The position numbers were made by a program, and so were the translations under genes. Positions 15,707-38,277 of a stretch of DNA of 38,458 bases are shown piece by piece. The notes under the pieces are model-generated. The model worked only from the letters and a program-made list of their open reading frames with translations. It had not been told where the DNA came from and did not search any database. The stretch comes from an uncultured Desulfobacteraceae bacterium. Its GTDB lineage: Bacteria > Desulfobacterota > DSM-4660 > Desulfatiglandales > B25-G16. The stretch covers positions 1 through 38,458 of the forward strand of contig CAYTDY010000003.1 in NCBI GenBank assembly GCA_964436665.1, given 5' to 3'. The number at the start of each line of letters is the position of its first letter. Within the stretch, counting starts at the first letter, position 1.

Positions 15707-16221
15707 AGAGTTAACCTCACTACTTCAATATTTGCCTCGGCCAGCATCTCATCTGCCAGAGAATCTGGATAACCTTCTAAAAAAAAGATTTTTTCTACCC
15801 CTGCATTAATCAGCATCTTTGAACAAATGATACAAGGCATATGGGTAGCGTAAAGGGTTGTTCCTTTAGTAATAACTCCATAATAGGCAGCCTGTATAAT
15901 TACGTTCTGCTCGGCATGAAGACCCCGGCATAGCTCATGCCTTTCACCCGGCTTTACCTTTAAATTTTCCCTCAGGCAGCCAACCTCCTCACAGTGTCTT
16001 ATACCAGTCGGTGCACCATTATAACCTGTAGCCAAGATCCTTTTATCTTTGACCAACACTGCGCCAACTTTCCTCCTCAGGCAGGTTGATCTTGTGGCTA
16101 CCATCTTTGCAATGGAAATAAAATATTCTGGCCATGAAGGTCTTGGCAATGAATCTCCCAAAATTTTTATAGACCAATATAGGTGAAACTGACTCCAAAG
16201 AGAGATCTTTTCATAACTCAT
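15703..16221 (-). CDS. dCMP / deoxycytidylate deaminase (ComEB type)
   Basis: 172 aa with [27 protein letters not shown] and [13 protein letters not shown]. It overlaps the nrdR start by 4 nt. Confidence 0.85.
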
Positions 16222-16429
16222 ATCTTCTTAACGAGTATGGCCTTTTCTTCAGTTCCGAGGCTCCCGGGCTGGTCTTTTCAGCCTCGATAATATTAGTAAT
16301 TTAAGGATCAATCTTATTCAGACTAATCTATTACCTTCGTTTAATACTTGAAATTGTAAACTTGAAACTGGATAAATGCAATAAATTCACCCAGAAACCA
16401 GAAGTTCCGACAATAAGGAACAACAAATT

Positions 16430-24584: not shown

Positions 24585-24703
24585 CGTTCAGGGTTACCTT
24601 TCAAAACTCACGAATTAGCGGTTCAGACCTGCCCGCCGGATGGCAGGCGGGTTTTCGGTGAACCCTGAACCTCTGAACCCGTGAACGGTTGTTGATTCAT
24701 CAA

Positions 24704-25474
24704 TTAAAAATCTTCAATCTTCAATTCCTTCAGGTCTATCATAACAAGCTCAACCCCAAAAATCGCTTTGATGTGATGCTTTACAGTCTCGCGGACTTTG
24801 CTCATGGATACTTTATGTGAGAGTTCCCGCTCAATGGAGGTCATCCCTATATCTTGAAGACCGCAGGGTTTTATCCATCCAAAAGGTTTCAGTGAAAGAC
24901 TGACATTAAATGCAATGCCATGGAAACAAATTCCATGGCGAATCGCTATCCCGATGCTCCCCAGTTTATTGTTGCCGACCCAGACTCCCCTGTTTATGGG
25001 ATTTCGTTCAGCCATTATTCCCTGGTCCGCAGCCGTCCTTATCATAACTTCTTCCAAATTGTCGACATAATCCGTTACCCCTAACCTGGATGTTCTCATG
25101 TCAATGATAGGGTAAACAACAAGCTGTCCTGGTCCGTGAAAGGTAATGTTGCCTCCCCTTTCTACTTGAATCACTGGAATTCCTGCTTTTTCCAGAAAAT
25201 CCTCAGACACAGTTAAATTATTCAACCCGCCCCTGCGGCCAAGAGTGAAAACAGGTAGGTGTTCCAAGAATAAAACAATATCCGTATCAATAATTCGATC
25301 TTTTCTTGCAGCTACAAGACTACATTGCAAATCCCATGCTTTAGCATATTCGATCGTTGATAGTTCTATATAAAGCCATTTTCTATTTCTATGGATAGAT
25401 TTATTATTACAGTACTTCAATGCGGAGTCTTTGTAATTGAATGGTGGAATCCTTCTTTTGTTCTTATGGGACAC
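24704..25474 (-). CDS. lipB: Octanoyl/lipoyl-(ACP):protein transferase
   Basis: 256 aa with EHLPVFTLGRRG, RGGNITFHGPGQLVVYPI and KLGSIGI. The GTG start lies 3 nt after the fdhA-like stop. The ~30-aa N-terminal extension is uncertain. Confidence 0.85.
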   Translation of the reverse strand: MSHKNKRRIPPFNYKDSALKYCNNKSIHRNRKWLYIELSTIEYAKAWDLQCSLVAARKDRIIDTDIVLFLEHLPVFTLGRRGGLNNLTVSEDFLEKAGIPVIQVERGGNITFHGPGQLVVYPIIDMRTSRLGVTDYVDNLEEVMIRTAADQGIMAERNPINRGVWVGNNKLGSIGIAIRHGICFHGIAFNVSLSLKPFGWIKPCGLQDIGMTSIERELSHKVSMSKVRETVKHHIKAIFGVELVMIDLKELKIEDF

Positions 25475-25477
25475 TAA

Positions 25478-27520
25478 TTATGGCTCTACACGCACTGCGC
25501 AAATTTTAAGCTCTGGAATCCCGGATTTAGTATCAAGCTCTTGCATAGTCAAGACGTTTGCCGAGGCCTCTGCAAAATGGATAGGGATGAAGAGTATATT
25601 TCGAGGAATAGTCTCCTTTATATGAGCTTTTACGTTTATGAAACCCCGTCTGGACTGTACCTTGATGATTTGCCCTTCTTGCACCCCAAGAAGAGACGCA
25701 TCTCGAGGGTTGATTTCAATATAGGCTTCATCCAACAGTGCTTGAAGGGTAGGAGACCGCCTCGTCATAGTACCAGTATGGAAGTGAAACAGAGTCCGAC
25801 CTGTTATCAAAACCATGGGATAATGTTTATCAGGTACCTCTGGTGGTGGATTATAATGTACAGGCACTAAAAGTCCTTTTCCGCGCGAAAACTGCTTCTC
25901 ATGAAGAAACTGTGTACCAGGATGACCCACCTCAGGACAAGGCCATTGAATTCCATTATCTCCCAAACAATTGTAGGACATTCCCCTGTAAATGGGTGTA
26001 ACTTGTGAAATTTCGCGGAAAACCTCCTCTGATGTTCTCCAATTCATCCCGTTGTAGCCCATACGACGGGATAGTTCCCCTATGGCTTGCCACTCTTGCT
26101 TGGCTCTTCCCAAAGGCTTAATGGCTTTATGAACCATTTGTACGCGCCGCTCTGTCGAAGTGAAGGTTCCATCTTTTTCGGCAAAGCTAACCCCAGGGAG
26201 GACTACATGAGCAAATGAAGCAGTTTCATTTAGAAAAATATCATGAACAACAAGTAAATCCAGCTGTTCTAACGCCTGAGAAATCTGTAGTGAATTTGGC
26301 ATTGAAAGAGCAGGGTTTTCTCCCATAATATACATCCAATGGATCTTCCCATTTAGAATCCCATTAAACATTTCGCACATGGTAACCCCAACTTCTCGTG
26401 GTAGCTGAGTTGTTGACCAAGTTTTCTGGAAAAACTTGTGAATAGAGGGATCGCTCACCCCCTGGTATCCAGGGAATACATCAGGAAGACACCCCACATC
26501 GCAAGTGCCCTGAACATTGTTTTGTCCTCTCAGAGGGTTCACACCAGTAGATCGCCGCCCGACGTTTCCCGTGATTAGCGCCAGATTAGTCAAGGCCAAC
26601 ACCGTGTCCGTTCCGGTAGCATGCTGAGTGACTCCCATGCCATACACTATGGATACCCTTTTGGCGTGGCCAAGAAGGCGAGCGGCCTTGACAATTTCTT
26701 TAGGCGGGACCCCAGTAATCTTTGATACACTTTCAGGAGTATAATCGATAATACTTTTTGCCAAGTCATCAAATCCCTCTACACGCTTTATGATGAAGTC
26801 CCGGTCTTCCATCCGCTCCTTTAGAATTATATGAATGAAGCCATTGATCAAAGCAATGTCGCTACCAGGATAAGGCTGGAGATACATATGACTGCATCCC
26901 GCTAAATCAATCCGGCGAGGATCAATTAAGATCAAAGTGCGATCCTTGTCCAGAATAGCCCTCAAAATTCTCCGACTGATGAGAGGATGCTGTTCAGTAG
27001 TGTTGGAGCCTATAATTAATAACACGTCCGCATCTTCCAGCTCCTCTATGCTATTAGTCATAGCCCCGCTGCCGAACGCAGTTGTCAGGCCGGTCATTGT
27101 GGAAGCGTGGCAAAGCCGGGCACAATTATCGATGTTAGACGTCTTCGCTACAGCTCTCCCAAACTTTTGAAGTGCGTAGTTATCCTCATTCGAGCACTTG
27201 GCTGATCCTATAAGACTTACGGCATGCGGACCATGCTTTTCCAAGACATGCAATAAACTCCTTCTAATCCAGTTTAAGGCTTCGTCCCAGCTGACAGTTC
27301 GGAAGGGCTGGGATCGGTCCTCTCTCAATAATGGTTGCTTCAACCTGTCATTATGTTCAATGAACTCATGAGCGCTCCATCCCTTGATGCAAAGCTTTCC
27401 CTGATTGACCCCTTTATCGCTGGGGTATACTCCTTCAATATGATGTTGATCATTCACTCTAAGAACTATGCGGCAGCCTACACCACAGAATGGGCAAATT
27501 GTTTCCACATCTTTGAACAT
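25478..27520 (-). CDS. fdhA: Formate dehydrogenase catalytic (alpha) subunit, FdhF/FdhH-like, cytoplasmic, Cys-type molybdo/tungstopterin enzyme
   Basis: 680 aa, colinear with E. coli FdhF as I recall it. It has the N-terminal CPFCGVGCRI...C 4Fe-4S motif, CARLCHAS (Cys-His where Sec-His sits in FdhF CARVUHGP) and the conserved VNPLRGQNNVQG Arg. There is no twin-arginine signal and no in-frame TGA. AAGGAA lies 7 nt upstream of the ATG. Confidence 0.85.
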   Translation of the reverse strand: MFKDVETICPFCGVGCRIVLRVNDQHHIEGVYPSDKGVNQGKLCIKGWSAHEFIEHNDRLKQPLLREDRSQPFRTVSWDEALNWIRRSLLHVLEKHGPHAVSLIGSAKCSNEDNYALQKFGRAVAKTSNIDNCARLCHASTMTGLTTAFGSGAMTNSIEELEDADVLLIIGSNTTEQHPLISRRILRAILDKDRTLILIDPRRIDLAGCSHMYLQPYPGSDIALINGFIHIILKERMEDRDFIIKRVEGFDDLAKSIIDYTPESVSKITGVPPKEIVKAARLLGHAKRVSIVYGMGVTQHATGTDTVLALTNLALITGNVGRRSTGVNPLRGQNNVQGTCDVGCLPDVFPGYQGVSDPSIHKFFQKTWSTTQLPREVGVTMCEMFNGILNGKIHWMYIMGENPALSMPNSLQISQALEQLDLLVVHDIFLNETASFAHVVLPGVSFAEKDGTFTSTERRVQMVHKAIKPLGRAKQEWQAIGELSRRMGYNGMNWRTSEEVFREISQVTPIYRGMSYNCLGDNGIQWPCPEVGHPGTQFLHEKQFSRGKGLLVPVHYNPPPEVPDKHYPMVLITGRTLFHFHTGTMTRRSPTLQALLDEAYIEINPRDASLLGVQEGQIIKVQSRRGFINVKAHIKETIPRNILFIPIHFAEASANVLTMQELDTKSGIPELKICAVRVEP

Positions 27521-27530
27521 TTCAAGTTCC

Positions 27531-28424
27531 TTATCGAAATTTTGAGGCTAAAGTTTTTTGACCTTCTTTGATCTTGTGCTTCTTGAAGCCAATGTCATCT
27601 AAACTCCATCCCATAGCAAGAGCCAGGAGTTCCAGAAAGTGAAATACAGGAAGCTGAACGTCGGTAATGCGCTTCCGAAAGGCCATCACCTGCCCAATCT
27701 CGAATTGTTGAAAGCAAAATGCACATGCTACAGACAATGCCTCAGCACCATATCGCTTCATATCTTCAACTTTTTTCTTCACCACAGTCAGAGAATCATC
27801 TAATGCTCCGGCTAAAGTCAGTGGAGCTCCACAACATATAGACTTTTCCCGGTAATCAACAACGCAGGCCCCCATTGCATCGAGAATCTTATCCGCCTTA
27901 ACAGGGCTAAAAGGATTGTCAAACTGCAAGATGGCTTTGGGGCTGCTTTCGTGGCATCCACTATGACAAGCAATTTTCAATTCGGCGAGCGGCCGCCTAA
28001 CTTCATCGCTGAGCCTCTTTAGGCCCACATCCTCATAGATCACCCTCAAAAAGTGCTTTACTGTAACCGGCCCATTGATATTATGGCCAACCTCTTCAAG
28101 CACCTGGTTTACTTTTCGGGCTAACATAGGCCGTTCCTGTAATTCCTGATTTGCCGTGGAAAGGGTAAATGTACAAGTGGGGCACAAAGTCAAGATAGGT
28201 AAACCAAGCCTCTGAGCGATAGATAAATTCCTGGCAGCGAGAGCTAACCACGTAAAGCGGTCCGCGGCCCCGAAACGCACAGGGTCTGGGCAGCAAGTAA
28301 AGCCTTCTGCATCTACTAACTCGATTCCTAATTGTGCTAGCGTCTTGCGAGCCAAGTATTCAAATTGGGGAAAACGGGTGGGAATCAAACATCCTAAAAA
28401 AAGCACGTATCTGATTGGTATCAT
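27531..28424 (-). CDS. hdrB: Heterodisulfide reductase subunit B-like protein (two CCG domains)
   Basis: The ATG at 28424 is preceded by AGGAGAGG, whereas the track ORF starts 20 codons earlier. FLGC...TCCPDP...CPTC and CHSGCH...ICCGAP...CAFC form two CCG domains, colinear with methanogen HdrB (TW.A.AARN, V.V.HF, DVGL, PV.H...LL.LAMG). Confidence 0.82.
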   Translation of the reverse strand: MIPIRYVLFLGCLIPTRFPQFEYLARKTLAQLGIELVDAEGFTCCPDPVRFGAADRFTWLALAARNLSIAQRLGLPILTLCPTCTFTLSTANQELQERPMLARKVNQVLEEVGHNINGPVTVKHFLRVIYEDVGLKRLSDEVRRPLAELKIACHSGCHESSPKAILQFDNPFSPVKADKILDAMGACVVDYREKSICCGAPLTLAGALDDSLTVVKKKVEDMKRYGAEALSVACAFCFQQFEIGQVMAFRKRITDVQLPVFHFLELLALAMGWSLDDIGFKKHKIKEGQKTLASKFR

Positions 28425-28509
28425 CTCTACCTCTCCTGAGTAACTTAATATGTAAAAGAGCATGAAGATATCTTTTTTTACCATGCCCTCACAATGACAA
28501 GTCGGTAGG

Positions 28510-28585
28510 CCGCTTCAAACCAGCGCACACGGACAAAGGCCCTAGAAGACAATGACGAGTTGCTTGTGCGCAGGGTTTGAAGCGG
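28510..28585. repeat. Long hairpin in the hdrC-hdrB spacer
   Basis: CCGCTTCAAACC (28510-28521) pairs perfectly with GGTTTGAAGCGG (28574-28585). GCGCAC/GTGCGC extends the stem to about 18 bp, with a 37-nt loop. Confidence 0.6.
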
Positions 28586-28737
28586 CACGCTGAGGCCCCC
28601 TATTAGAGGGCATGATGTGAAAAAAGACACCTCCATGCTCAATTTAACGTTTCTTTCATGAATAACCCGGAAGCGAAGCGCCGAGGTCATTTTCTGAGTA
28701 ATTATTTAGTTTTGTTCATGGCACTACTGGTGCTCTC

Positions 28738-29244
28738 TTATAGATACCGAATAACTGTAGAACTGGATCGGAGATTTTCTAACTTCTCTAGTAGTCCCGT
28801 GCGTTTTGCAATGCGCTGGATGTCCTCAACAGCCTCAAACTTGAATGCTGATAACCCTAGATTTTCACGTTCTTTGATAGCCTTTTGTGTTACTGGAAAA
28901 GACATCCCAGTTGAAAGCACCATCTCCACGAGTTTGTAAACAAAACTAGGCGCGTATCCTTCTTCTAATGAACGTTCTTGGAAGCTAGCAACCACACGGG
29001 CGAGATCTACATCTTGCGGGCATGATTCAGAGCATTTGTGGCATGCAGAGCAACACCATAGAGATAACTGTGCTTGAGGTTTATCTGATCGCAAAAGCTC
29101 ATAAAAAAAGGTTCGAGAATTGTCATATGCTTTTAAATGTTGAACCACGCAATGTAAGCTGCAAACACTGCATTCAAAGCAAAGATGTTGCAAAGTCAAA
29201 AATCCGTAATTCCGGTCCCGACCTATGTAATCAATCTGGATCAT
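28738..29244 (-). CDS. hdrC: Heterodisulfide reductase subunit C-like ferredoxin (2x[4Fe-4S])
   Basis: 168 aa. It has CFECSVCSLHC(V) and CCSACHKCSESCP motifs at HdrC-like spacing, and the C-terminal half is colinear with methanogen HdrC (TG...P......E.R...GL). Confidence 0.72.
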   Translation of the reverse strand: MIQIDYIGRDRNYGFLTLQHLCFECSVCSLHCVVQHLKAYDNSRTFFYELLRSDKPQAQLSLWCCSACHKCSESCPQDVDLARVVASFQERSLEEGYAPSFVYKLVEMVLSTGMSFPVTQKAIKERENLGLSAFKFEAVEDIQRIAKRTGLLEKLENLRSSSTVIRYL

Positions 29245-29583: not shown

Positions 29584-31041
29584 TCAGCCTGCAAGACATG
29601 GTTTCCGAGCCGCTGTTGTCTCATCCAGCCTTTTTACCTTGCAGATTTTTGGTGCTTCATGCAGCAGGTCCGGCTCTTCCATTGCCTCTTTTACAATGGC
29701 TTTGAATGCTTCAATGTATTGATCGAGGTCATCTTTTGACTCTGTCTCAGTTGGTTCGAACATGATCGCACCCTGTACTACCAACGGAAAATAAACGGTG
29801 GGCGGATGAAATCCGTAATCCATAAGTCGTTTTACCATTTCCAGGGTTGTAACCTTATAGGCCATTTGATATTTATCGGAAAAAACGCATTCATGCATAC
29901 ACGGTCTGTCATAGGCAAGATGTAATGTATCCTTTAACATTTCCTTGACATAATTTGCATTCAAGACAGCAAGCTGGCTGGCCTTTTTCAGATTTTTTGG
30001 CCCCATGCTACGAAGATAACTGTAAGCCTTTATCATGACCCCAAAATTTCCATGAAATGCTGAAATCTTGCCTATGGATTCAGGATAATTTTCAGCAAGA
30101 ATAAATCTGCCATTCTCCTGGATCACGCGCGGAACAGGCAGAAATGGCTCAAGATGCCTTTTGACACATACAGGACCTGAACCGGGACCTCCTCCCCCGT
30201 GGGGAGTCGAAAAGGTCTTATGGAGGTTAAGATGCATGATGTCAACCCCGATTTTGCCCATTTGTACAATACCCATAGCTGCATTCATGTTTGCACCGTC
30301 ACAATACACCAGCCCTCCTTTGGAGTGGACGATTTCGGCTATTTTTTGGATGTTTTCTTCAAAAAGACCAAGTGTGTTGGGGTTGGTTACCATAATTCCG
30401 GCTGTATCATCGTCCATGACATCAGCAATGGCCTCCGCAGAAAGTATCCCCTGTTCGTTGGATCTTACAGACACCGGACTGTAACCGCAGAGGGCCGCAC
30501 TGGCAGGGTTTGTCCCGTGAGCAGTATCCGGAATAATTATTTTTGAACGCCGCACCCCTTTGCTTTTATTAAAGGCATAAATAAGAAGCATTCCGGTAAG
30601 CTCTCCATGGGCCCCTGCTGCAGGCTGAAGGGTGGTTGCGTCCATACCCGTGATTTCAGCAAGATATTGCTCAAATTCAAACATAATCTTGAGAGCTCCC
30701 TGAGATAGATTGGCCGGAAGCAGGGGATGGGCCCAGCTAAATCCCGGAAGGCCTGCCTGCTTTTCATTTGTCTTCGGACTGTACTTCATGGTGCATGAAC
30801 CTAACGGGTACATACCAGAATCCACTCCGAAATTCCACTGGGACAGCCTGGTGTAATGACGTACCACATCAACCTCACTCAGATCCGGAAAGTCAGGGCC
30901 TTCGAATGTAAGGTCCTCATCCAAGGGGCAGGATTCAACGTCACGCCGGGGAATGGAAAATCCGCATCTTCCCTTTTTCCCCTTTTCCCAAAGTAGCGGT
31001 TCATTTAATATAAGGCCTGTAGTACCTAAAGATTCTTTCAT
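29584..31041 (-). CDS. gcvPB: Glycine dehydrogenase (aminomethyl-transferring) subunit 2
   Basis: 485 aa. HLNLHKTFSTPHGGGGPG carries the PLP-lysine motif. Confidence 0.95.
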   Translation of the reverse strand: MKESLGTTGLILNEPLLWEKGKKGRCGFSIPRRDVESCPLDEDLTFEGPDFPDLSEVDVVRHYTRLSQWNFGVDSGMYPLGSCTMKYSPKTNEKQAGLPGFSWAHPLLPANLSQGALKIMFEFEQYLAEITGMDATTLQPAAGAHGELTGMLLIYAFNKSKGVRRSKIIIPDTAHGTNPASAALCGYSPVSVRSNEQGILSAEAIADVMDDDTAGIMVTNPNTLGLFEENIQKIAEIVHSKGGLVYCDGANMNAAMGIVQMGKIGVDIMHLNLHKTFSTPHGGGGPGSGPVCVKRHLEPFLPVPRVIQENGRFILAENYPESIGKISAFHGNFGVMIKAYSYLRSMGPKNLKKASQLAVLNANYVKEMLKDTLHLAYDRPCMHECVFSDKYQMAYKVTTLEMVKRLMDYGFHPPTVYFPLVVQGAIMFEPTETESKDDLDQYIEAFKAIVKEAMEEPDLLHEAPKICKVKRLDETTAARKPCLAG

Positions 31042-31088
31042 GATTTAACCTCTCTATTAATTTGGTAATTTGGGAATTCCCCAATCCC

Positions 31089-32420
31089 TCAATTCCTCAA
31101 TTTGCTTACTAATTCATCCATTTCCTCCATGGACTTGGTTTCCGTTACACACAAAAGATAATGGTTGGCAAGTTCAGGATAATAGGGAGCCAGAGAAAGG
31201 CCTGCTATTATCTTTGTCTCCAGAAGGCGCTTGTAGTTGACCTCAAAGTCTGGAGGGAATTCCACCACGAATTCATTGAATGTGGGCCTGTCAAAGCTTA
31301 TTTTAAATCCCGCCTTTTTTAGTTCTTTTTTAAGATACTCGGCCTTATCATGGTTAAGACGGGCAAGTTCCCGTATCCCGGTACCTCCTACAGAGGCCAT
31401 ATACATTGCAGCCGCCAGAGCACAGAGGCTATTGTTGGTGCAAATGTTTGAAGTCGCCTTTTCCCTGCGAATATGCTGCTCCCTGGTAGCAAGCGTAAGA
31501 ACAAAGCCTCTTTTTCCATCCAGATCTTTTGTTTGGCCAATCAAGCGACCAGGTAAGTTGCGCATATATTCCTTTCTGCTTGCGAGGATCCCAAGTGCCG
31601 GTCCACCAAAGGTCTGGGGAATACCCAGACTCTGACCTTCTCCGCACACAATGTCAGCGCCTTGACTCCCGGGATTTTTAAGGAGCCCGTAAGCAAGTGC
31701 TTCTGTAAAGGAAGAGATGAAAAGGGCCTTTTTAGCATGAGCCTTTTCCCCAATGGCCTGTAGTTCTTCAATGCATCCTAAAAAATTTGGCGACTGAACC
31801 GCAACTGCTGCAAGGTCATCCATTTCATCAAGCCCTGTAAAATCGGTCATACCATTTTTAAGATAGTTAAGTTCCAAAACTTCATAACCGGTGGGATTAA
31901 AATAGGTTTGAACCACTCGACGATATAGAGGATGAATCAGACTTGAAATGGCGACTTTTCGCCTCTTTGTTACACGAACGGCCATAAGCAGTGATTCGGC
32001 CAGGGCTGTGGCACCATCATAATGCGATGCGGTTGCTATTTCCATACCCAGTAGCCTGGCAACAAGCGTCTGATACTCATAAATCGCCTGGAGTGTTCCC
32101 TGGCTCATTTCCGGCTGGTAGGGAGTATACGATGTTACAAACTCGGAGCGACCTAAAAGGTACGATACCGACGCAGGAATAAAATGTTCATAACTACCTG
32201 CTCCCATGAACACTTTATAATCCGGGGAGACGGCCATGCTACTGGAAATAGAGGCCATATGGTCATTCAATTCCCACTCGCTCAATGCCTCAGGCAGATT
32301 GAGATTGTCCCTTAAACGGCAATTCTCAGGGACGGTTGAGAAAAGACCGTCAAGGTCATCAACCCCCACAACCTTAAGCATTGAAGCAATTTCTTCACTG
32401 GTATGAGGCAAGTAAAGCAT
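31089..32420 (-). CDS. gcvPA: Glycine dehydrogenase (aminomethyl-transferring) subunit 1
   Basis: 443 aa with TSYTPYQPEMSQGTLQAIYEYQT. The start abuts the gcvH stop as TAAATG. Confidence 0.95.
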   Translation of the reverse strand: MLYLPHTSEEIASMLKVVGVDDLDGLFSTVPENCRLRDNLNLPEALSEWELNDHMASISSSMAVSPDYKVFMGAGSYEHFIPASVSYLLGRSEFVTSYTPYQPEMSQGTLQAIYEYQTLVARLLGMEIATASHYDGATALAESLLMAVRVTKRRKVAISSLIHPLYRRVVQTYFNPTGYEVLELNYLKNGMTDFTGLDEMDDLAAVAVQSPNFLGCIEELQAIGEKAHAKKALFISSFTEALAYGLLKNPGSQGADIVCGEGQSLGIPQTFGGPALGILASRKEYMRNLPGRLIGQTKDLDGKRGFVLTLATREQHIRREKATSNICTNNSLCALAAAMYMASVGGTGIRELARLNHDKAEYLKKELKKAGFKISFDRPTFNEFVVEFPPDFEVNYKRLLETKIIAGLSLAPYYPELANHYLLCVTETKSMEEMDELVSKLRN

Positions 32421-32825
32421 TTAATCTGCTCCTTTCAGTTTTTCAAGACACTCGGCATTGGTCATCAGGTCGTCCATCTCAGATGGATCGCTGGGATTGA
32501 CATCAACAAACCATCCATCGTTGTATGGATTTTTGTTCACAAGTTCAGGCGATTCTTCAAGGGCGGTGTTTACAGCAATAATTTCTCCGCCGACCGGCAA
32601 GTAACATTCCACAACCGCTTTTACTGATTCCACAGTTGCGAATTCTTTCCCCTTTTCAAAGGTATCACCTATCTGGGGCAGCTCCACGAAAACAATGTCT
32701 CCAAGCTGATCCTGGGCATAGTCATCAAGGCCGACCCTGATCCTATCGCCCTCAAGCCTGGCCCATTCATGATCTTCTGCATAGCGAATATCACCGGGTA
32801 AATTTAATTCATTGATTTCTTTCAT
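32421..32825 (-). CDS. gcvH: Glycine cleavage system H protein (lipoyl carrier)
   Basis: 134 aa. Has the lipoyl-lysine motif VESVKAV and an ATGA overlap with gcvT. Confidence 0.95.
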   Translation of the reverse strand: MKEINELNLPGDIRYAEDHEWARLEGDRIRVGLDDYAQDQLGDIVFVELPQIGDTFEKGKEFATVESVKAVVECYLPVGGEIIAVNTALEESPELVNKNPYNDGWFVDVNPSDPSEMDDLMTNAECLEKLKGAD

Positions 32826-34117
32826 AATCTCTTCTCCTTTTGCTCTATTATCTCCTCAATGGGACATAGTGCTGTACGATCAGGACGAATGTCACTCACA
32901 ATCATGACCTTTATTTTTCGCCTTTCATCTTTGAGTTCCACTACTTGCCCGGGATCCAGCTTGGACTTCACCTTTACAAAGCCGCAGCTCAATCCATGGG
33001 GTTTGAAATTTTCCGGTTTATCGGGGCTTGAAATGCTGTAAATCCGGTCTCCATGACGCCCAATTCCTATATCACAAACACAGGTAAGAACCAAACCTAT
33101 TTTATTGCCCTCAGAATCCAATACAATAGTCTGATCACAGACGGAAACCTTACGGAGGTCATAGCCTGTGAAGGCATAGGTGTATTCTGGTTTGTCTATA
33201 TCCTTAAGGGCTTCGTTTCCTATAAACTTTTTGGTAAAGTCTGTTCCGTCAGGATTGAAAGGCAGGGCAAAAGGCCACGGGTGATTGATGAATGGCCATG
33301 GACCGATATCCTGATGGGACAGGGGAAGGACCGCACTGGCCCTGAGAGAATCCCTGACCGCTAAGCCGCAGGGCAAAAGACCAAAATCTTGCCCTGCGTC
33401 AAAAATCATTTCCCAGACCTTGACGAGATGAAACTGGTCTACGAAAATTTCAAAGCCAAATTCCCCGGTATAGCCCGTTCGTGAAAGCAGAAGCGGCGTA
33501 CCGTCAATCAATCGTACCTTATCGGCAAGTGGAGATGCTTCATCAAAATGGCCCTTGAACGTAAAGTATAGCATGTCTTTAAAAACTTCTTCGTGATCTA
33601 CCAGAATTTTCATAAGGATCCTGGCGGCCATTGGACCCTGGATGTCCATTTTACCTATTTTATCCGTAAGGTCGTTAATTTCAACATTTCGCCTATCCCT
33701 GTAAGCCATCAGATGCCGTGCTACTTCACCGCCTAAGCCGGCGTTTACGACAGTCATGTAAGTGTTATGCTCCAACTGGTACAAGATTGCGTCATCAATG
33801 ACTTTGCCTGATTCATTAAGAAAGGCACCATAAACACATCTGCCAGGTACCAAAGGTGATTTGTCTTTCCCCACGCAGGCATACAGGTCTTTGGTAAGGC
33901 AGAGCTGGAGCAGTTCAAAAGCGTCAGGGCCTATAACCATGACCAGAGCCATATGGCTTGTATCGAAAATGCCAGCCTTTGTAAGAACCGCCAGATGTTC
34001 CTTTTTTGCACCTGCAGGATACCAGAGCGGCATTTCGTATTCTCCGAAACTGACCATATTGGCCCCATGGGCCACATGCCAATCATATAAAGGAGTCTTC
34101 TTCGTTTCCTTTTGCAT
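32822..34117 (-). CDS. gcvT: Glycine cleavage system T protein (aminomethyltransferase), long form
   Basis: 431 aa with TPLYDWHVAHGANMVSFGEYEMPLWYP and GIFDTSHM. The C-terminus is about 60 aa longer than in typical GcvT. Confidence 0.9.
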   Translation of the reverse strand: MQKETKKTPLYDWHVAHGANMVSFGEYEMPLWYPAGAKKEHLAVLTKAGIFDTSHMALVMVIGPDAFELLQLCLTKDLYACVGKDKSPLVPGRCVYGAFLNESGKVIDDAILYQLEHNTYMTVVNAGLGGEVARHLMAYRDRRNVEINDLTDKIGKMDIQGPMAARILMKILVDHEEVFKDMLYFTFKGHFDEASPLADKVRLIDGTPLLLSRTGYTGEFGFEIFVDQFHLVKVWEMIFDAGQDFGLLPCGLAVRDSLRASAVLPLSHQDIGPWPFINHPWPFALPFNPDGTDFTKKFIGNEALKDIDKPEYTYAFTGYDLRKVSVCDQTIVLDSEGNKIGLVLTCVCDIGIGRHGDRIYSISSPDKPENFKPHGLSCGFVKVKSKLDPGQVVELKDERRKIKVMIVSDIRPDRTALCPIEEIIEQKEKRL

Positions 34118-34248: not shown

Positions 34249-34692
34249 TTAAAGTATATAAGGGACCTTCAAGTTGTAGCCCTTGTAAATCACGAAGCTC
34301 TCCACGGACCGAATGTCCTTTAACCGATACACCTCCTCTGTGTAAAATTCCAACAAGTTAAACCCTTCCTTTAAAAGGACCACCAGCATTAGATCATATC
34401 GGCCTGTTACAACGCTTGCAGACACCACCCCCTTTAACTTGCTGAATTCCTCAGCTTTTTTGACCAGATTCAAGGTATTTAATTTAACGCCGACCATGAC
34501 CACCCTGTGCCCAGAAATGGCTTCCGGGTCCACGAGTCCAGAGATCTCCAGAATTCCTTTGTTTAATAATTTGTTGACCCGCGCTCTCACCGTGTTTTCG
34601 GAAATACCCAGTTCATCGGCAATCATTTTGAAGGATTTTCTTCCATCTCTAAGGTGCCTAATAATTGTGATGGTGGTTTCGTCTATGTTCAT
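34249..34692 (-). CDS. Lrp/AsnC family transcriptional regulator
   Basis: MNIDETTITIIRHLRDGRKSFKMIADELGISENTVRARVNKLLNKGIL is the HTH, followed by a RAM-type C-domain. I chose the start at 34692 from typical family length. An alternative ATG is at 34725. Confidence 0.85.
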   Translation of the reverse strand: MNIDETTITIIRHLRDGRKSFKMIADELGISENTVRARVNKLLNKGILEISGLVDPEAISGHRVVMVGVKLNTLNLVKKAEEFSKLKGVVSASVVTGRYDLMLVVLLKEGFNLLEFYTEEVYRLKDIRSVESFVIYKGYNLKVPYIL

Positions 34693-34858
34693 ATTAAATA
34701 TACCCCCGCTTAATATTGGCGACATCAATAATCGAATCAGTCAGGATATCAAGATGCCTCAACTTTTGGACGATACCTAAATATTATTAAATTATATTTT
34801 TTAATTATGCTTTTCATTCCTCAACTTTTTTCCAACGATAGTAGACAATAAGATAATA

Positions 34859-34887: not shown

Positions 34888-35373
34888 TTTTTGTGATATC
34901 TTCAAAATAATCGATATATTTCATGAATTAATCAATTTTAGCGGTAAGACAAAAAGGAAATGATACATGAAACAGGAAAATGAATAATGGAGTTTTAAGG
35001 GTTATGGAGAACGGCGTGTTTCTCACCTGTCAGCATAGCTGGCCATTTTACACAGGCCACACCACCAACCTCCCCAGCGATCTGTTAGCGTTAATCATGC
35101 ACTCGATAACAGTGGCCATGATCTTATGGCTAAATGCTTCCCCATAATGAAAAGATTGTCACACTGTCAAGGCCGGTGACCCCTCCCGTGGTATTGCTGG
35201 CTAGCCACTTCGATACAGTCCATTACTGGGCTGCACTGGCTGCATACGGGCTTTGTCCCTCGACCAACAATTTCTGTACGGGCACGGCCCCGCAAAGGTA
35301 GGATTAGAGAATCTCTTTCTTGAGTTGACGAAATGCCTTAAGGCTGATATTATCGATGTCGTTTATAATCAAA

Positions 35374-35432: not shown

Positions 35433-35454
35433 GGAGAAGGAAAGGAGATGATTG

Positions 35455-38106
35455 ATGAGCGACCTTCAAAAAACTATTTTCTATGACCGGCATGTGGCCT
35501 TGGGCGCCAAGATAGTGGAATTTGCCGGTTGGGAGATGCCTATTTTCTACCCCACCGGTATCGTGGAGGAGCATCTGGCCACCCGCAAGGGAGCTGGGTT
35601 TTTTGACGTTTCCCACATGGGACGATTCATCGTCCGAGGTCCTGGTGCGGTGAAATTTCTTCAGCACGTCTTGAGCAATAATGTTGAAGCTCTTGATGTC
35701 AGAGGGATGGGTGCTCAGTACACGCTCATCGCCACCAAAACAGGTGGGGCTGTAGACGATGCATATCTCTATCGCTTTGTCGAGGAGGAGTATCTCTTGG
35801 TGGTAAATGCAGCTAACTACGAGAAGGATTGGAATCACTTCCAGATGTTTTTAAAGGATTTCCACGATGTTGAGCTTATAGACCGCACCGGAGAGATTAT
35901 CATGCTTGCGCTGCAAGGGCCGATGTCACGGCAAATCTTAGAAGAGATTATACAATCAGGTCCTCTCCCGGAACCAATGCGAAACGCCGTGAGTATCGTG
36001 ACGATCTCCGGTTCCAATGTGAAGGTAGCCCGCACCGGCTACACAGGCGAGCCGTTGTGTTTTGAGCTCTTCGCCAGCCAACACGACGGCCCGATGCTGT
36101 GGGACCTGATCGTGGCTAATGGAGCGACTCCCGTCGGTCTTGGTGCGCGGGATACGCTCCGCTTAGAAGCGGGCATGCCACTTTATGGCCATGAATTGGG
36201 TGAAGACCCTGACGGCAAGGAAATCCCCATAATGGCCTGTCCTTTGTCTAAGTTCGCTGTGAGCTTTTCACCATTGAAAGGGGAATTTATAGGCCGTGAG
36301 GAGCTATCTAAGCAACATAAAGCGTTCGAGAAAATCATCTCGCGCGATTACTCGCTCATCAATGACCTGCCGCGCATGATCAAGCCGATCGCTGTTGCAG
36401 GGCGAGGAATTGCCCGTGAGGGATCTAAGGTGTTTAAAGGTGACAGGCACGTCGGCCATGTCACCAGTGGCACGATGATCCCGATGTGGTCCGTCGAGGG
36501 TGAAGGACTGGAATCTGCGCAGACTGACCAACATAAGTTGCGGTCAATCTGCCTGGGATACATTGACAGTGACATCATTGAGGACGAGAGGATCATCTTA
36601 GAGATTCGCGGTAAGTTAGTTGATGCTGTAGTGGTTCCATTCCACATGCGAACTGATGCCCCGTCATACGCCCGCCCGATCGTCTTCGATCACCAATTGC
36701 CGACAAAGGAATTGCCAACCCGTGATGCACCGGCCAAGGCCCGCATTCTTCTCGAAAAAACCGTGGAGAATACTCTCTGGCGACAGCGAGAATGCATTAA
36801 CCTCATCCCCTCTGAGATGACGATCTCGCCGATGGCCAGGCTTCTTTCGGTTATGGATCCGGCCTTTCGCTACGCTGAGCATAAAAAATCCAAGGCATTC
36901 TATGACGCTGACATCTTCTACTACCAAGGAACCGATTTCATCGGTGAGGTAGAGCGGATGCTGGAAGAGGAAATTCGAAAATTCCTTGGCTGCCAGAATG
37001 TTGAGACGCGGCTCATCAGCGGGCAGATGGCTAACATCGCTGTTTTCAGTGCAATTCTCGACTACATCAATCGCGCTGATCGGAAACGTGAGCCTCGACG
37101 AATTCGCCAGGTGATGAGCAACCATATCAGCAAAGGTGGCCACCTCAGCGCCCAGCCTATGGGTGCGCTAAAGGACTACGTGGCCCGGGACCCACATACG
37201 GAGCGCCCGGCCGTGGTGAATTTCCCGGTGCTAGCCGACAATCCTTACAAGACTGATGTGCCAGCCATGTTGAAATTGATCGATGAGTATCGTCCAGAGC
37301 TGATAATTTTTGGCAAGAGCATGGTTTTGCATAAAGAGCCAGTCTTCGAGATCCGCCAGTTCCTCGACGTTCAGGATATTAATGCAGTGGTTATGTACGA
37401 CATGGCTCACGTGCTCGGACTCATCGGTCCATACTTCCAGCAGCCCTTTTCAGAAGGAGCCGATCTTGTCACCGGATCAACACACAAGACATACTTTGGC
37501 ACACAGCGAGGCATCGTCGGGAGCCGTTTTCATGAGCACGAGGAACTTTACGAACTTTGGGAGGCTCTCCTTCGAAGAACTTTCCCCGGTTCGGTGTCCA
37601 ACCATCACCTTGGCACATTGCTGGGTCTGCTGATGGCTGCTTACGAGATGAATCATTTCAAGGACGAATATCAGGCCAAGGTCATTGCTAATTCAAAGGC
37701 ATTTGCCAGGGCGCTAAAGGATTCTGGTCTAAATGTGGCTGGAGACCCCTATATCGACTTCACTGAAACCCACCAGGTGGTGGTGAACGTAGGCTACAGC
37801 CGCGGGCCGGAAATCGCCAAACAACTTGAAGTCAACAACATTATCTGCAACTATCAGGCGAGTCCCGATGAAGAGAGCTTTACTGTCGCCGGCGCTCTGC
37901 GTATGGGCGTATCTGAGATGACTCGCTTTGGTATGGAAGAAGACGACTTCCGCGCCTTAGCTCTGCTGATCCATGACGTGGTGATAAAGGATATTAATGT
38001 CACTGATCAGGTGAAAGCACTCCGGGAACGATTCCGAGAACTTCAGTTCTGCTTCCGTGATGATAAATACGCTGATATATTGCAGAAGCTACATGACCTT
38101 CTGTAA
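35455..38106 (+). CDS. Fusion protein: complete GcvT-type aminomethyltransferase (N, ~400 aa) plus a divergent serine hydroxymethyltransferase-like PLP domain (C, ~450 aa)
   Basis: The N-terminal part has IFYDRHVALGAKIVEFAGWEMPIFYP, FFDVSHMGRF, ARTGYTGE and GLGARDTLRLEAGMPLYGHEL. The C-terminal part has INLIPSEMTISP, GGHLS, DMAHVLGLIG, GSTHKTYFGTQRGIV (PLP Lys context), FPGSVSNHH and LRMGVSEMTRFGM. It is one uninterrupted frame, and the linker lies at about 36655-36745. Confidence 0.85.
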   Translation: MSDLQKTIFYDRHVALGAKIVEFAGWEMPIFYPTGIVEEHLATRKGAGFFDVSHMGRFIVRGPGAVKFLQHVLSNNVEALDVRGMGAQYTLIATKTGGAVDDAYLYRFVEEEYLLVVNAANYEKDWNHFQMFLKDFHDVELIDRTGEIIMLALQGPMSRQILEEIIQSGPLPEPMRNAVSIVTISGSNVKVARTGYTGEPLCFELFASQHDGPMLWDLIVANGATPVGLGARDTLRLEAGMPLYGHELGEDPDGKEIPIMACPLSKFAVSFSPLKGEFIGREELSKQHKAFEKIISRDYSLINDLPRMIKPIAVAGRGIAREGSKVFKGDRHVGHVTSGTMIPMWSVEGEGLESAQTDQHKLRSICLGYIDSDIIEDERIILEIRGKLVDAVVVPFHMRTDAPSYARPIVFDHQLPTKELPTRDAPAKARILLEKTVENTLWRQRECINLIPSEMTISPMARLLSVMDPAFRYAEHKKSKAFYDADIFYYQGTDFIGEVERMLEEEIRKFLGCQNVETRLISGQMANIAVFSAILDYINRADRKREPRRIRQVMSNHISKGGHLSAQPMGALKDYVARDPHTERPAVVNFPVLADNPYKTDVPAMLKLIDEYRPELIIFGKSMVLHKEPVFEIRQFLDVQDINAVVMYDMAHVLGLIGPYFQQPFSEGADLVTGSTHKTYFGTQRGIVGSRFHEHEELYELWEALLRRTFPGSVSNHHLGTLLGLLMAAYEMNHFKDEYQAKVIANSKAFARALKDSGLNVAGDPYIDFTETHQVVVNVGYSRGPEIAKQLEVNNIICNYQASPDEESFTVAGALRMGVSEMTRFGMEEDDFRALALLIHDVVIKDINVTDQVKALRERFRELQFCFRDDKYADILQKLHDLL

Positions 38107-38277
38107 GCAGCGCAATCAACAAGTCAATGCCTCGAGAAGATCCGTTTGCCGTAAATAAAGTCATACCAGCGTGCATATCTGCCAAGCAATCTCTGCTCGA
38201 GAAGGGATAATACATCAATGGAATTATCAAAGATAAGATTAATACCAAGTTGCATTCAAACGGCTACTATTTATAGA

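What the first reader, a model, noticed from the sequence alone, without database searches (positions are those of the whole stretch)
35455..38106. In-frame fusion of a complete GcvT aminomethyltransferase to a divergent SHMT-like domain
Seen in the sequence:
- A single 883-codon frame has all GcvT hallmarks in the first ~400 aa and a full SHMT-fold PLP domain after a Pro/Ala/Lys-rich linker at about nt 36655-36745.
- The SHMT part is atypical. It has SEM instead of SEN, FYYQG instead of YYGG, THKTYFGTQRG instead of THKTLRGPRGG, and THQVVV instead of DNHL.
- A second, unfused gcvT lies 1.3 kb away in the canonical operon, so this is a paralogue.

Established knowledge: GcvT releases 5,10-methylene-THF from aminomethyl-H-protein, and SHMT consumes methylene-THF plus glycine to make serine. 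In mitochondria the two activities are metabolically coupled, but as separate proteins.

Inference: the fusion could channel labile methylene-THF (2 Gly <-> Ser + CO2 + NH3). Next to the gcv/fdh/hdr block, it would complete a glycine-serine branch of a reductive glycine route. Alternatively, the divergent SHMT domain acts on a different hydroxy-amino acid or a different pterin.
Basis: partly seen in the sequence, partly recalled or inferred. Interest (0 to 1): 0.7.

Follow-up and report, generated by a model that had tools for sequence, protein, structure and literature searches.

The report
Widespread uncharacterised GcvT–SHMT fusion enzyme
One gene joins the T protein of the glycine cleavage system to an archaeal-type serine hydroxymethyltransferase; this fusion occurs in hundreds of anaerobe genomes, is annotated only as "GcvT", and in this genome the ordinary glyA gene has been deleted.

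Summary
Window 35455..38106 (+) is one 883-codon ORF with a GcvT module (aa 1-395), a 20-residue linker and a full SHMT-fold PLP domain (aa 430-883).

- **Not an assembly artefact.** The same colinear protein occurs in several hundred species-level genomes from many bacterial phyla and in Woesearchaeota.
- **The "atypical" SHMT motifs are not idiosyncratic.** They are the signature of the archaeal-type SHMT clade (best solved relative: Methanocaldococcus jannaschii SHMT). All PLP, substrate and folate-reaction residues are kept.
- **The fusion is the locus's T protein.** In most relatives it is the only gcvT-like gene beside gcvH-gcvPA-gcvPB, or it sits in the gcvT slot of the operon.
- **The unfused gcvT 1.3 kb away is the rarer extra.** It belongs to a different family.
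- **New here: glyA is deleted.** The bacterial glyA is missing from its conserved rpiB-glyA-dCMP-deaminase site (relic at 16165..16327). The closest relative keeps both genes.

Best reading: a bifunctional aminomethyltransferase/SHMT that links glycine cleavage or synthesis to glycine-serine interconversion. Channelling is untested. I found no paper describing the fusion.

The parts
35455..38106 (+). Fusion gene: 883 codons plus stop (GcvT module, linker, SHMT-fold domain)
   Evidence: ORF; Pfam GCV_T + GCV_T_C + SHMT; full-length homologues
35455..36639 (+). GcvT (aminomethyltransferase) module, aa 1-395
   Evidence: NCBIfam NF001567 scores 308.9 (cut-off 300) and TIGR00528 scores 253.9 (cut-off 235.85). 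Best PDB match is the T. maritima T protein 1WOO, E 4e-59. D101, D102, N118, G195, Y196, G198, E204 and R232 are invariant in 53 diverse fusions.
36640..36681 (+). Conserved tail after the T-module barrel (aa 396-409, ...APSYARPI)
   Evidence: The consensus APPYARPI is kept across diverse fusions; mean identity 54%
36682..36741 (+). Inter-domain linker, aa 410-429 (VFDHQLPTKELPTRDAPAKA): variable sequence, fixed length
   Evidence: Mean identity 25%, but length 18-23 residues in 52 of 53 sequences
36742..38103 (+). Archaeal-type SHMT-fold PLP domain, aa 430-883
   Evidence: Pfam SHMT 121.6 bits. Best PDB match is M. jannaschii SHMT 4UQV/4BHD, E 4e-48, against 1e-15 to 1e-23 for bacterial and eukaryotic SHMTs. 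S453, Y473, E475, Y490, G561-G562-H563, D649, H652, H677, K678 and R816 are invariant in 53 fusions. Mean identity is 62%, higher than the T module at 56%.
37486..37488 (+). Codon of Lys678, the predicted PLP Schiff-base lysine (S-T-H-K-T)
   Evidence: Aligns with the THK motif of MjSHMT and of bacterial GlyA
35325..35353 (+). Promoter-like site TTGACG-17-TATTAT with a TG extension
   Evidence: Consensus scan. It lies in a stretch also conserved upstream of the fusion gene in L017, L026, L030, L032 and L112. Function not shown.
34249..34728 (-). Divergently transcribed AsnC/Lrp-type regulator
   Evidence: Pfam AsnC_trans_reg + HTH_AsnC-type. The same family is found beside the fusion in 10 loci of the first set and in others of the second.
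32822..34117 (-). Unfused gcvT-like gene (gcvT'), 431 aa, of the 'aminomethyltransferase family protein' group
   Evidence: GCV_T 198 bits, but below the GcvT cut-offs (221 < 300; 170 < 235.85). 34% identical to the fused T module. The family occupies the gcvT slot in Syntrophus gentianae. Found beside the fusion only in the window and L070.
32421..32825 (-). gcvH (lipoyl carrier H protein)
   Evidence: Pfam GCV_H 135 bits
31089..32420 (-). gcvPA (glycine dehydrogenase subunit 1)
   Evidence: Pfam GDC-P 425 bits
29584..31041 (-). gcvPB (glycine dehydrogenase subunit 2)
   Evidence: Pfam GcvP2_C and GDC-P
23673..25474 (-). Lipoate-protein ligase (LplA/B type) and lipoyl synthase, needed to lipoylate GcvH
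   Evidence: Pfam LplA-B_cat; Radical_SAM + LIAS_N. Conserved at the end of the gcv cluster in relatives.
16165..16327 (-). Relic of the deleted bacterial-type glyA between rpiB and the dCMP deaminase gene
   Evidence: Synteny fabF-rpiB-glyA-dCMP deaminase-nrdR-ribD in relatives. blastn shows window 16861->16276 = L162 4911-5505 and window 16164->15715 = L162 6686-7135, with about 1.18 kb of glyA missing. In the relic the start codon reads ATT and the ninth codon is TAA. tblastn of L162 GlyA finds no other copy in the window.

Best explanation
The gene encodes a bifunctional enzyme.

**T module (inferred).** The N-terminal module is the T protein of the glycine cleavage/synthase system encoded next door (gcvH, gcvPA, gcvPB, plus lipoylation genes). 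It would move the aminomethyl group between lipoyl-GcvH and tetrahydrofolate, releasing or taking up ammonia.

**SHMT domain (inferred).** The C-terminal domain is an archaeal-type, PLP-dependent serine hydroxymethyltransferase that interconverts glycine plus 5,10-methylene-THF and serine.

**Assembly (inferred).** SHMTs are obligate dimers, so the protein is expected to be a dimer carrying two T modules on about 20-residue tethers of fixed length.

**Physiology (inferred).** The two activities share one folate pool and are made in 1:1 stoichiometry. In these anaerobes the pair can run towards serine (CO2 + NH3 + 2 methylene-THF -> glycine -> serine) or towards C1 units (serine -> glycine -> CO2 + NH3 + 2 methylene-THF). 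Direct hand-over of methylene-THF from one site to the other applies only to 2 Gly -> Ser.

**This genome.** The ordinary glyA has been deleted from its conserved site, so the fused domain is probably the working SHMT.

**Shown:** domain identity, residue conservation, gene context, wide distribution and the glyA deletion.
**Inferred:** both activities, THF as cofactor, dimer state and direction of flux.
For: - T module identity: it passes NCBI's GcvT cut-offs and aligns over its whole length with the T. maritima, B. subtilis and E. coli T proteins.
- SHMT identity: the closest solved relative is the characterised M. jannaschii SHMT. That enzyme has an active site and mechanism like other SHMTs (PMC3697235).
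- Residue conservation: the PLP lysine, the Asp of Y-D-x-A-H, the G-G-H histidine, the Ser of S-E, Tyr and Glu of Y-A-E, Tyr of Y-Y-Q-G and the Arg of R-x-G are invariant in 53 fusions spanning 31-87% identity in this domain.
- Selection: the SHMT half is more conserved than the T half (62% against 56%).
- First locus set: the fusion lies beside gcvH/gcvPA/gcvPB in 37-39 of 80 loci, and a separate gcvT is present only in the window and L070. Independent gene calls on CP070668.1 confirm this layout.
- Second, more distant set: the fusion occupies the gcvT slot. Examples are fusion-gcvH-gcvPA-gcvPB in Pirellulales, Lachnospiraceae and a deltaproteobacterium, and gcvH-gcvPA-gcvPB-fusion in Christensenellaceae.
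- Serine link: in one sub-clade the fusion sits in an lpd-fusion-SerK-like-SerB-like-aminotransferase cluster.
- glyA: it is deleted at its syntenic site in the window, while the closest relative (MAG CSMAG_2745) keeps both glyA and the fusion.
Against: - No activity has been measured.
- The SHMT half is below NCBI's SHMT subfamily cut-off (238.9 < 335).
- The nearest characterised relative uses tetrahydromethanopterin, not THF.
- The clade has four conserved insertions near the YYQG and GGH motifs whose role is unknown.
- The window also encodes an unfused gcvT', which could be the T protein actually used.
- One window cannot show that no other glyA exists elsewhere in the genome.
- glyA loss might be tolerated without any SHMT, if glycine comes from the reversed cleavage system and serine from 3-phosphoglycerate.
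- One fusion lineage (P0134) has lost the PLP lysine, so the SHMT half is not always catalytic.
- Structure prediction failed (pLDDT 46), so nothing is known about domain geometry.
Confidence: 0.7

Rival explanations
1. The C-terminal domain is not an SHMT. It is another PLP aldolase or transaldolase of the SHMT fold (threonine aldolase or transaldolase, alpha-methylserine type, or acting on another hydroxy-amino acid). The fused T module would then capture the released one-carbon fragment.
For: - Below the NCBIfam SHMT cut-off.
- The second-best PDB match is the L-threonine transaldolase entry 7K34 (E 5.5e-29).
- The clade has conserved insertions near the folate-site motifs.
Against: - The fluorothreonine transaldolase model scores 121 against a cut-off of 650.
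- Residues needed for the folate-dependent SHMT reaction (Glu of Y-A-E, Tyr of Y-Y-Q-G, Asn799) are invariant or nearly so.
- The best match by a wide margin is a demonstrated SHMT.
- The gene sits in gcv operons and, in one sub-clade, beside serine-metabolism genes.
- glyA has been lost in the window.
Confidence: 0.1
2. The T module does not work with H protein here. It acts as the folate-binding acceptor for the fused PLP domain, as GcvT-like domains do in dimethylglycine oxidase, sarcosine oxidase and TMAO demethylase. The unfused gcvT' or another gene would be the real T protein.
For: - GcvT-like domains are known as fused C1-capturing modules. The PDB hits 9Q5A, 1PJ5 and 1VRQ are such proteins.
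- The window has a separate gcvT' in the operon, and that family fills the gcvT slot in Syntrophus gentianae.
- The nearest SHMT relative uses a pterin that these bacteria presumably lack.
Against: - The fused N-half passes the GcvT equivalog cut-offs, whereas gcvT' does not.
- In about 150 loci the fusion is the only gcvT-like gene beside gcvH/gcvP.
- The SHMT half keeps its own folate-reaction residues.
Confidence: 0.12
3. The SHMT-fold half is a non-catalytic sensor or scaffold (for example binding glycine or serine) that regulates or oligomerises the T protein.
For: - One deep lineage (P0134) has SAHHT in place of STHKT and lacks the GGH histidine.
- The linker has a fixed length.
Against: - All catalytic residues are invariant in the other 52 aligned members.
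- The domain is more conserved than the T module.
Confidence: 0.05
4. The fusion is an artefact: a frameshift, a chimeric assembly or a read-through of two adjacent genes.
For: None found. One locus (L135) shows separate T and SHMT ORFs side by side, which may be a split gene or a sequencing frameshift.
Against: Hundreds of independent assemblies, including closed chromosomes (CP070668.1, CP070673.1, OZ244909.1, NZ_CP017634.1), carry the same uninterrupted frame with a linker of constant length.
Confidence: 0.01

Closest known systems
Glycine cleavage system T protein (aminomethyltransferase GcvT; PDB 1WOO Thermotoga maritima, 3A8I E. coli T-H complex)
   Same: - The N-terminal 395 residues align end to end and pass NCBI's GcvT thresholds.
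- They sit beside gcvH and gcvP.
   Different: - About 35 residues longer than standalone T proteins, with insertions around aa 285-310 and 345-362.
- Covalently joined to an SHMT domain.
Methanocaldococcus jannaschii SHMT (PDB 4UQV/4BHD), archaeal-type SHMT
   Same: - Best solved relative of the C-terminal half.
   Different: - MjSHMT is standalone and uses tetrahydromethanopterin.
- The fused clade is mostly bacterial and has four conserved insertions.
- In a rough NJ tree the fused clade forms its own branch next to the MjSHMT group (no support values).
Bacterial GlyA (e.g. the glyA of MAG CSMAG_2745, L162 5454-6686)
   Same: Same fold, PLP lysine, and substrate and folate-reaction residues.
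   Different: - Only about 25-29% identical.
- Different motif variants.
- GlyA lies in the fabF-rpiB-glyA-nrdR-rib neighbourhood, from which it has been deleted in this window.
GcvT-domain fusions: dimethylglycine oxidase/dehydrogenase, sarcosine oxidase alpha subunit, TMAO demethylase
   Same: A GcvT-type folate domain is fused to a second catalytic domain that handles the same one-carbon unit (PDB hits).
   Different: - In those enzymes the folate domain is C-terminal, fails the GcvT thresholds and needs no H protein.
- Here the T module is N-terminal, passes the GcvT thresholds and is encoded with gcvH/gcvP.
Functional coupling of glycine decarboxylase and SHMT in plant mitochondria (2 Gly -> Ser + CO2 + NH3)
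   Same: The same two activities are linked through methylene-THF (established knowledge).
   Different: There they are separate proteins sharing a soluble folate pool; here they are one polypeptide.

Membership tests
GcvT aminomethyltransferase (EC 2.1.2.10) | Sequence reaches the curated family thresholds | tested here: met
   NF001567 308.9 (cut-off 300); TIGR00528 253.9 (cut-off 235.85); Pfam GCV_T 245 bits and GCV_T_C 33.5 bits
GcvT aminomethyltransferase (EC 2.1.2.10) | Conserved folate-binding and catalytic residues (the Asp-Asp of V-D-D-A, Asn of V-V-N-A, R-T-G-Y-T-G-E, G-L-G-A-R-D) | tested here: met
   D101, D102, N118, G195, Y196, G198, E204 and R232 are invariant in 53 fusions. The roles assigned to these residues come from my knowledge of the T-protein structures, not from a test here.
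GcvT aminomethyltransferase (EC 2.1.2.10) | Encoded with gcvH and gcvP | tested here: met
   Beside gcvH/PA/PB in 37-39 of 80 close loci and about 29 of 78 distant loci, usually as the only gcvT-like gene
GcvT aminomethyltransferase (EC 2.1.2.10) | Transfers the aminomethyl group from lipoyl-H protein to THF | not testable with these tools
   Needs an enzyme assay
Serine hydroxymethyltransferase (EC 2.1.2.1) | SHMT-fold domain above the Pfam gathering score | tested here: met
   PF00464 121.6 bits (cut-off 27), covering profile positions 11-397 of 399
Serine hydroxymethyltransferase (EC 2.1.2.1) | Reaches the NCBIfam SHMT subfamily cut-off (NF000586) | tested here: not met
   238.9 bits against 335. 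The best PDB match is archaeal, so I infer, without having tested it, that the model fits archaeal-type SHMTs poorly.
Serine hydroxymethyltransferase (EC 2.1.2.1) | PLP lysine, pyridine-N Asp, stacking His, carboxylate-binding Arg; Glu and Tyr needed for the folate-dependent step | tested here: met
   K678, D649, H563, R816, E475, Y473, Y490 and S453 are invariant, and N799 nearly so, in 53 fusions. The correspondence to E. coli residues rests on an E. coli sequence recalled from memory plus the L162 GlyA.
Serine hydroxymethyltransferase (EC 2.1.2.1) | Catalyses Ser + THF <-> Gly + methylene-THF | not testable with these tools
   Indirect support only: glyA is deleted in this genome
Archaeal-type (H4MPT-dependent) SHMT clade | Closest to MjSHMT and shares its motif variants | tested here: met
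   E 4e-48 against 1e-15 to 1e-23 for bacterial and eukaryotic SHMTs; motif table; NJ tree (rough)
Archaeal-type (H4MPT-dependent) SHMT clade | Uses tetrahydromethanopterin rather than THF | not testable with these tools
   Hosts are mostly bacteria not known (to my knowledge) to make H4MPT, and the fused partner is a THF-type T protein, so THF is the parsimonious inference
L-threonine / fluorothreonine transaldolase | Reaches the family threshold | tested here: not met
   TIGR04506 121.2 bits against 650

The most novel reading that the evidence does not exclude
The fusion is a self-contained glycine-serine module in which the fixed-length tether holds the T-protein and SHMT folate sites close enough to pass methylene-THF (perhaps a bound polyglutamyl folate) directly between them. 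It would be the native SHMT of many anaerobes that run a reductive-glycine or serine route, and would be able to replace glyA, as in this genome. An archaeal, methanopterin-type SHMT would thus have been recruited to folate chemistry by fusion to a folate-binding T protein.
Probability: 0.2. Interest if true: 0.75.

Novelty: new variant of a known kind. Interest (0 to 1): 0.55.

Why it matters
- **Annotation gap.** Pipelines label these proteins only as GcvT / K00605. Metabolic reconstructions of hundreds of anaerobes, including sulfate reducers, syntrophs, gut Clostridia, Planctomycetota and Woesearchaeota, can therefore miss an SHMT. The genome sampled here would look glyA-negative.
- **A test case for channelling.** A natural covalent T-protein/SHMT pair would let one test whether methylene-THF is handed directly between glycine cleavage and SHMT. 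To my knowledge that question has been discussed for the mitochondrial pair without a physical complex to study.
- **Pathway engineering.** It offers a ready-made part for engineering the reductive glycine pathway.

Tried and rejected
- **AlphaFold2, first run.** The full-length protein with 24 homologues at 78-91% identity gave an unusable model (pLDDT 46, pTM 0.34). No fold search was run.
- **Third homologue search.** Using the diverse profile returned the same close Desulfobacterales set and added no diversity or names.
- **Broad alignment as a locus query.** It failed for lack of conserved stretches.
- **glyA co-occurrence scan.** I queried with the L162 GlyA to ask whether fusion-bearing genomes usually also have a bacterial glyA.
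- **Source record.** Looking up the window's own protein found no record.
- **RNA elements.** Rfam found no riboswitch or other RNA upstream of the gene, at either the gathering threshold or E <= 1.
- **Upstream region.** The 670-nt stretch is not a decayed lpd or other neighbouring gene by blastx, and shows no coding periodicity.
- **Literature.** Nine searches for any description of a GcvT-SHMT or GcvT-GlyA fusion found none. Subscription-only papers were not searchable.
- **Rejected: artefact.** Excluded by the many independent assemblies.
- **Rejected: "uniquely divergent SHMT".** The motifs are shared with MjSHMT.
- **Rejected: transaldolase.** The family score is far below the cut-off.
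Full report
**1.

- The window has a single ORF at 35452..38106 (+).
- From the ATG at 35455, preceded by AAGGAG at 35442-35447, it encodes 883 residues.
- Pfam finds GCV_T (aa 9-251, 245 bits), GCV_T_C (33.5 bits) and SHMT (aa 436-837, 121.6 bits, nearly the whole profile).
- The unfused gcvT-like gene, gcvH, gcvPA and gcvPB lie at 29584..34117 (-). An AsnC/Lrp-type regulator at 34249..34728 (-) is divergent from the fusion gene.

**2. The fusion is not an artefact, and it is common**

- More than 120 database clusters at 78-91% identity are full length (nearly all 883 aa). They are labelled, where labelled at all, 'glycine cleavage system aminomethyltransferase GcvT' or 'aminomethyltransferase'.
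- In one-genome-per-species contigs, 248 genomes carry a close relative. Nearly all of the best 80 cover the whole protein at 64-85% identity. Their labels include Desulfobacterales, Syntrophobacteria, Desulfatiglandales, Thermoleophilia, Planctomycetota, Anaerolineales, Abyssobacteria and Acidobacteriota.
- A search of 1.84 billion cluster representatives with the C-terminal half found fusion-length proteins (873-961 aa) down to 34% identity. Ten of them were scanned with Pfam. All ten show GCV_T, and nine also reach the SHMT threshold; P0194, the exception, still matched the SHMT-half query over residues 486-945.
- Two of these are from Candidatus Woesearchaeota and one is from Tara Oceans plankton.
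It returned full-length fusions labelled as Hyphomicrobiales, Chloroflexota, several Gammaproteobacteria, Pirellulales, Actinomycetota, gut Clostridia (Oscillospiraceae, Christensenellaceae, Lachnospiraceae), Spirochaetaceae, Armatimonadetes, Woesearchaeota and the enrichment organism 'Candidatus Formimonas warabiya' DCMF. Bin labels are as deposited.

**3. What the two halves are**

*T module.*
- The N-terminal 395 residues pass both NCBI GcvT thresholds (308.9 against 300; 253.9 against 235.85).
- They align over their length with the solved T proteins of T. maritima (E 4e-59), B. subtilis and E. coli.

*SHMT domain.*
- It is below NCBI's SHMT subfamily cut-off (238.9 against 335).
- Its best solved relative is clearly the M. 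jannaschii SHMT (4UQV/4BHD, E 4e-48). Bacterial and eukaryotic SHMTs score 1e-15 to 1e-23.
- The 'atypical' motifs are shared with that enzyme: YQG for YGG, STHKTFFGxQxG for TTHKTLRGPRGG, FPGxVSNHH for FPGxQGGP, and TE[ST]HQV for GGTDNH.
- According to a review, MjSHMT has an active site and mechanism like other SHMTs but uses tetrahydromethanopterin (PMC3697235).
- In a rough neighbour-joining tree (no support values) the fused domains and a few standalone proteins form one branch next to the MjSHMT group, far from E. coli GlyA.
- No PDB chain shows the fused architecture.

**4. Both halves look catalytically intact and are under selection**

I aligned 53 fusions whose identity to the window protein ranges from 84% down to 33%.

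- Invariant in the T module: D101, D102, N118, G195, Y196, G198, E204, R232.
- Invariant in the SHMT half: S453 (S-E), Y473 and E475 (Y-A-E), Y490 (Y-Y-Q-G), G561-G562-H563, D649 and H652 (Y-D-x-A-H), H677-K678 (T-H-K) and R816. N799 is nearly invariant.
- The roles I attach to these residues (PLP lysine, pyridine-nitrogen Asp, stacking His, carboxylate Arg, Glu/Tyr of the folate-dependent step) come from established SHMT literature. The mapping uses an alignment with the bacterial GlyA of L162 and an E. coli sequence recalled from memory.
- The SHMT half is more conserved than the T half (mean 62% against 56%).
- The linker (aa 410-429) is poorly conserved in sequence (25%), but its length is 18-23 residues in 52 of 53 sequences. 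That points to a geometric constraint between the domains.
- One lineage (P0134) has lost the lysine and the GGH histidine.

**5. Gene context: the fusion is the T protein of the locus**

I called ORFs in the fetched loci and clustered them.

- The usual layout among close relatives is lipA < lplA < (oxidoreductase or hydrolase) < gcvPB < gcvPA < gcvH < | fusion >, with no separate gcvT.
- gcvPA, gcvH and gcvPB are present in 39, 38 and 37 of the clustered sequences (80 loci plus the window).
- Independent gene calls with Pfam on the closed contig CP070668.1 show the same arrangement.
- Among distant members the fusion sits in the gcvT slot of ordinary operons. Examples: fusion-gcvH-gcvPA-gcvPB in Pirellulales, Lachnospiraceae and a deltaproteobacterium; gcvH-gcvPA-gcvPB-fusion in Christensenellaceae. 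lpd is often close by.
- Only the window and its nearest relative L070 carry the extra 431-aa gcvT'. It is 34% identical to the fused T module and fails the GcvT cut-offs.
- gcvT' belongs to a family NCBI calls 'aminomethyltransferase family protein'. In Syntrophus gentianae that family occupies the gcvT slot (gcvT'-gcvH-gcvPA-gcvPB-lplA-lipA beside lpd). In Desulfonema magnum it lies elsewhere.
- So the window has two candidate T proteins, and the fused one is the widely conserved partner of this gcv cluster.

**6. The ordinary glyA has been deleted in this genome**

- Elsewhere in the window lies fabG-fabF-rpiB-[gap]-dCMP deaminase-nrdR-ribD-ribE-ribBA-ribH-nusB on the minus strand.
- In relatives retrieved with RpiB, a bacterial-type glyA (409-427 aa) sits between rpiB and the deaminase gene in every locus that shares this neighbourhood. 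These are L162-L167, L170, L178, L181 and others.
- L162 comes from MAG CSMAG_2745, the same assembly as fusion locus L070.
- blastn shows the following:
  - Window 16861->16276 matches L162 4911-5505, which is rpiB, the spacer and the first 52 nt of glyA.
  - About 1.18 kb of glyA is then missing.
  - Window 16164->15715 matches L162 6686-7135, which is the deaminase gene.
- In the relic the start codon reads ATT and the ninth codon is TAA. The last ~100 nt faintly resemble the glyA 3' end.
- tblastn of the L162 GlyA against the whole window finds only the fusion's C-domain, at 25% identity.
- Hence the closest relative has both genes, and this genome has lost glyA from its conserved site while keeping the fusion. 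Whether another glyA exists elsewhere in the genome cannot be told from one window.

**7. How it most likely works**

*Shown:* domain identities, conserved residues, gcv context, wide distribution and glyA loss.

*Inferred:*
- The T module exchanges the aminomethyl group between lipoyl-GcvH and THF.
- The SHMT half interconverts glycine plus methylene-THF and serine.
- The protein is a dimer through the SHMT half, as all SHMTs are, with two tethered T modules.
- THF rather than methanopterin is the cofactor. The partner domain is a THF-type T protein, and most hosts are bacteria not known, to my knowledge, to make methanopterin.

*Direction.* In the reductive direction both sites consume methylene-THF, and in serine or glycine breakdown both produce it. 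Only 2 Gly -> Ser passes it from one site to the other. Channelling is therefore possible but is neither required nor shown. Co-expression at fixed stoichiometry is the minimal benefit.

*Further context.* In one sub-clade an lpd-fusion-SerK-like-SerB-like-class-V aminotransferase cluster adds a link to serine metabolism.

**8. Rivals**

- *A different PLP aldolase or transaldolase.* This is disfavoured by the conserved folate-reaction residues, the transaldolase model score (121 against 650) and the context.
- *The T module as a mere folate acceptor for the PLP domain,* as in dimethylglycine oxidase or TMAO demethylase. This is disfavoured because the module passes the GcvT thresholds and is usually the only gcvT beside gcvH/gcvP. 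It is not excluded in this window, which also has gcvT'.
- *A non-catalytic SHMT half.* This is disfavoured by conservation, apart from the P0134 lineage.
- *An artefact.* Excluded.

**9. Novelty**

- Both domains are known families, and fusions of consecutive enzymes are a familiar theme.
- Nine full-text searches found no description of this architecture. Databases name it only after its first half, and no structure exists.
- I rate it a new variant of a known kind: widespread, apparently uncharacterised, and practically relevant because it hides an SHMT from automated annotation.
- Subscription-only literature could not be searched, so prior description cannot be ruled out.

Noticed in passing
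window 25478..29244 (-): HdrC-like (28738..29244), HdrB-like CCG protein (27531..28484) and a formate dehydrogenase alpha subunit (25478..27520; TIGR01591 796 bits) lie inside the gcv cluster, between gcvPB and lplA. At the same slot relatives, including the nearest one (L070), carry a pyridine nucleotide-disulfide oxidoreductase or an alpha/beta hydrolase. This might be a formate-linked, Hdr-type redox partner for lipoyl-GcvH in place of an NAD-dependent L protein.
   Followed up: partly
L056, L059, L064, L065, L067, L068, L069, L080, L008 (genes just downstream of the fusion): In one sub-clade the fusion lies in a cluster with these genes. Upstream (in L064, L065, L067, L068 and L080) is lpd. 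Downstream are a 293-aa protein distantly related to the free-serine kinases SerK/SbnI (69 bits, far below cut-off), an ACT-ACT-HAD SerB-like phosphatase in most of these loci, and a class-V aminotransferase in three (L064, L065, L067). An AsnC-type regulator is divergent in most. This suggests a serine/phosphoserine branch attached to the glycine system.
   Followed up: partly
window 32822..34117 (-): The unfused gcvT' belongs to a large Desulfobacterales/Syntrophales family that NCBI names only 'aminomethyltransferase family protein'. It fills the gcvT slot in Syntrophus gentianae but sits next to a peptidase M49 gene in Desulfonema magnum. Its substrate is therefore uncertain.
   Followed up: partly
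window 35160..35340 (+), upstream of the fusion gene: A roughly 180-nt block is almost identical to L070 (5 mismatches), while the flanks diverge much more. It shows no coding periodicity, its indels are not multiples of three, and it has no Rfam match. It ends at a promoter-like TTGACG-17-TATTAT (35325..35353) that is also conserved in several more distant loci. It may be a regulator binding region or an unknown RNA.
   Followed up: partly
protein P0134 (889-aa fusion representative): This lineage has SAHHT instead of STHKT and lacks the GGH histidine. Its SHMT half has probably lost PLP catalysis while the fusion persists.
   Followed up: no
L135 1..2526: Separate ORFs for a T protein (326 aa) and an archaeal-type SHMT (495 aa) lie side by side. 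This is either a genuinely split version of the fusion or a sequencing frameshift.
   Followed up: no
window 38151..38234 (-); L004 7423..8331 and many other loci: A conserved ~300-aa protein with no Pfam or NCBIfam match, and a ~113-aa one, often follow the fusion gene in close relatives. The window keeps only a weak blastx relic of the former (E 0.001).
   Followed up: no
L156; proteins P0155/P0278 and P0214: The fusion also occurs in Candidatus Woesearchaeota (DPANN archaea), where it is annotated 'hypothetical protein'. A standalone relative (P0173) comes from the same group.
   Followed up: partly
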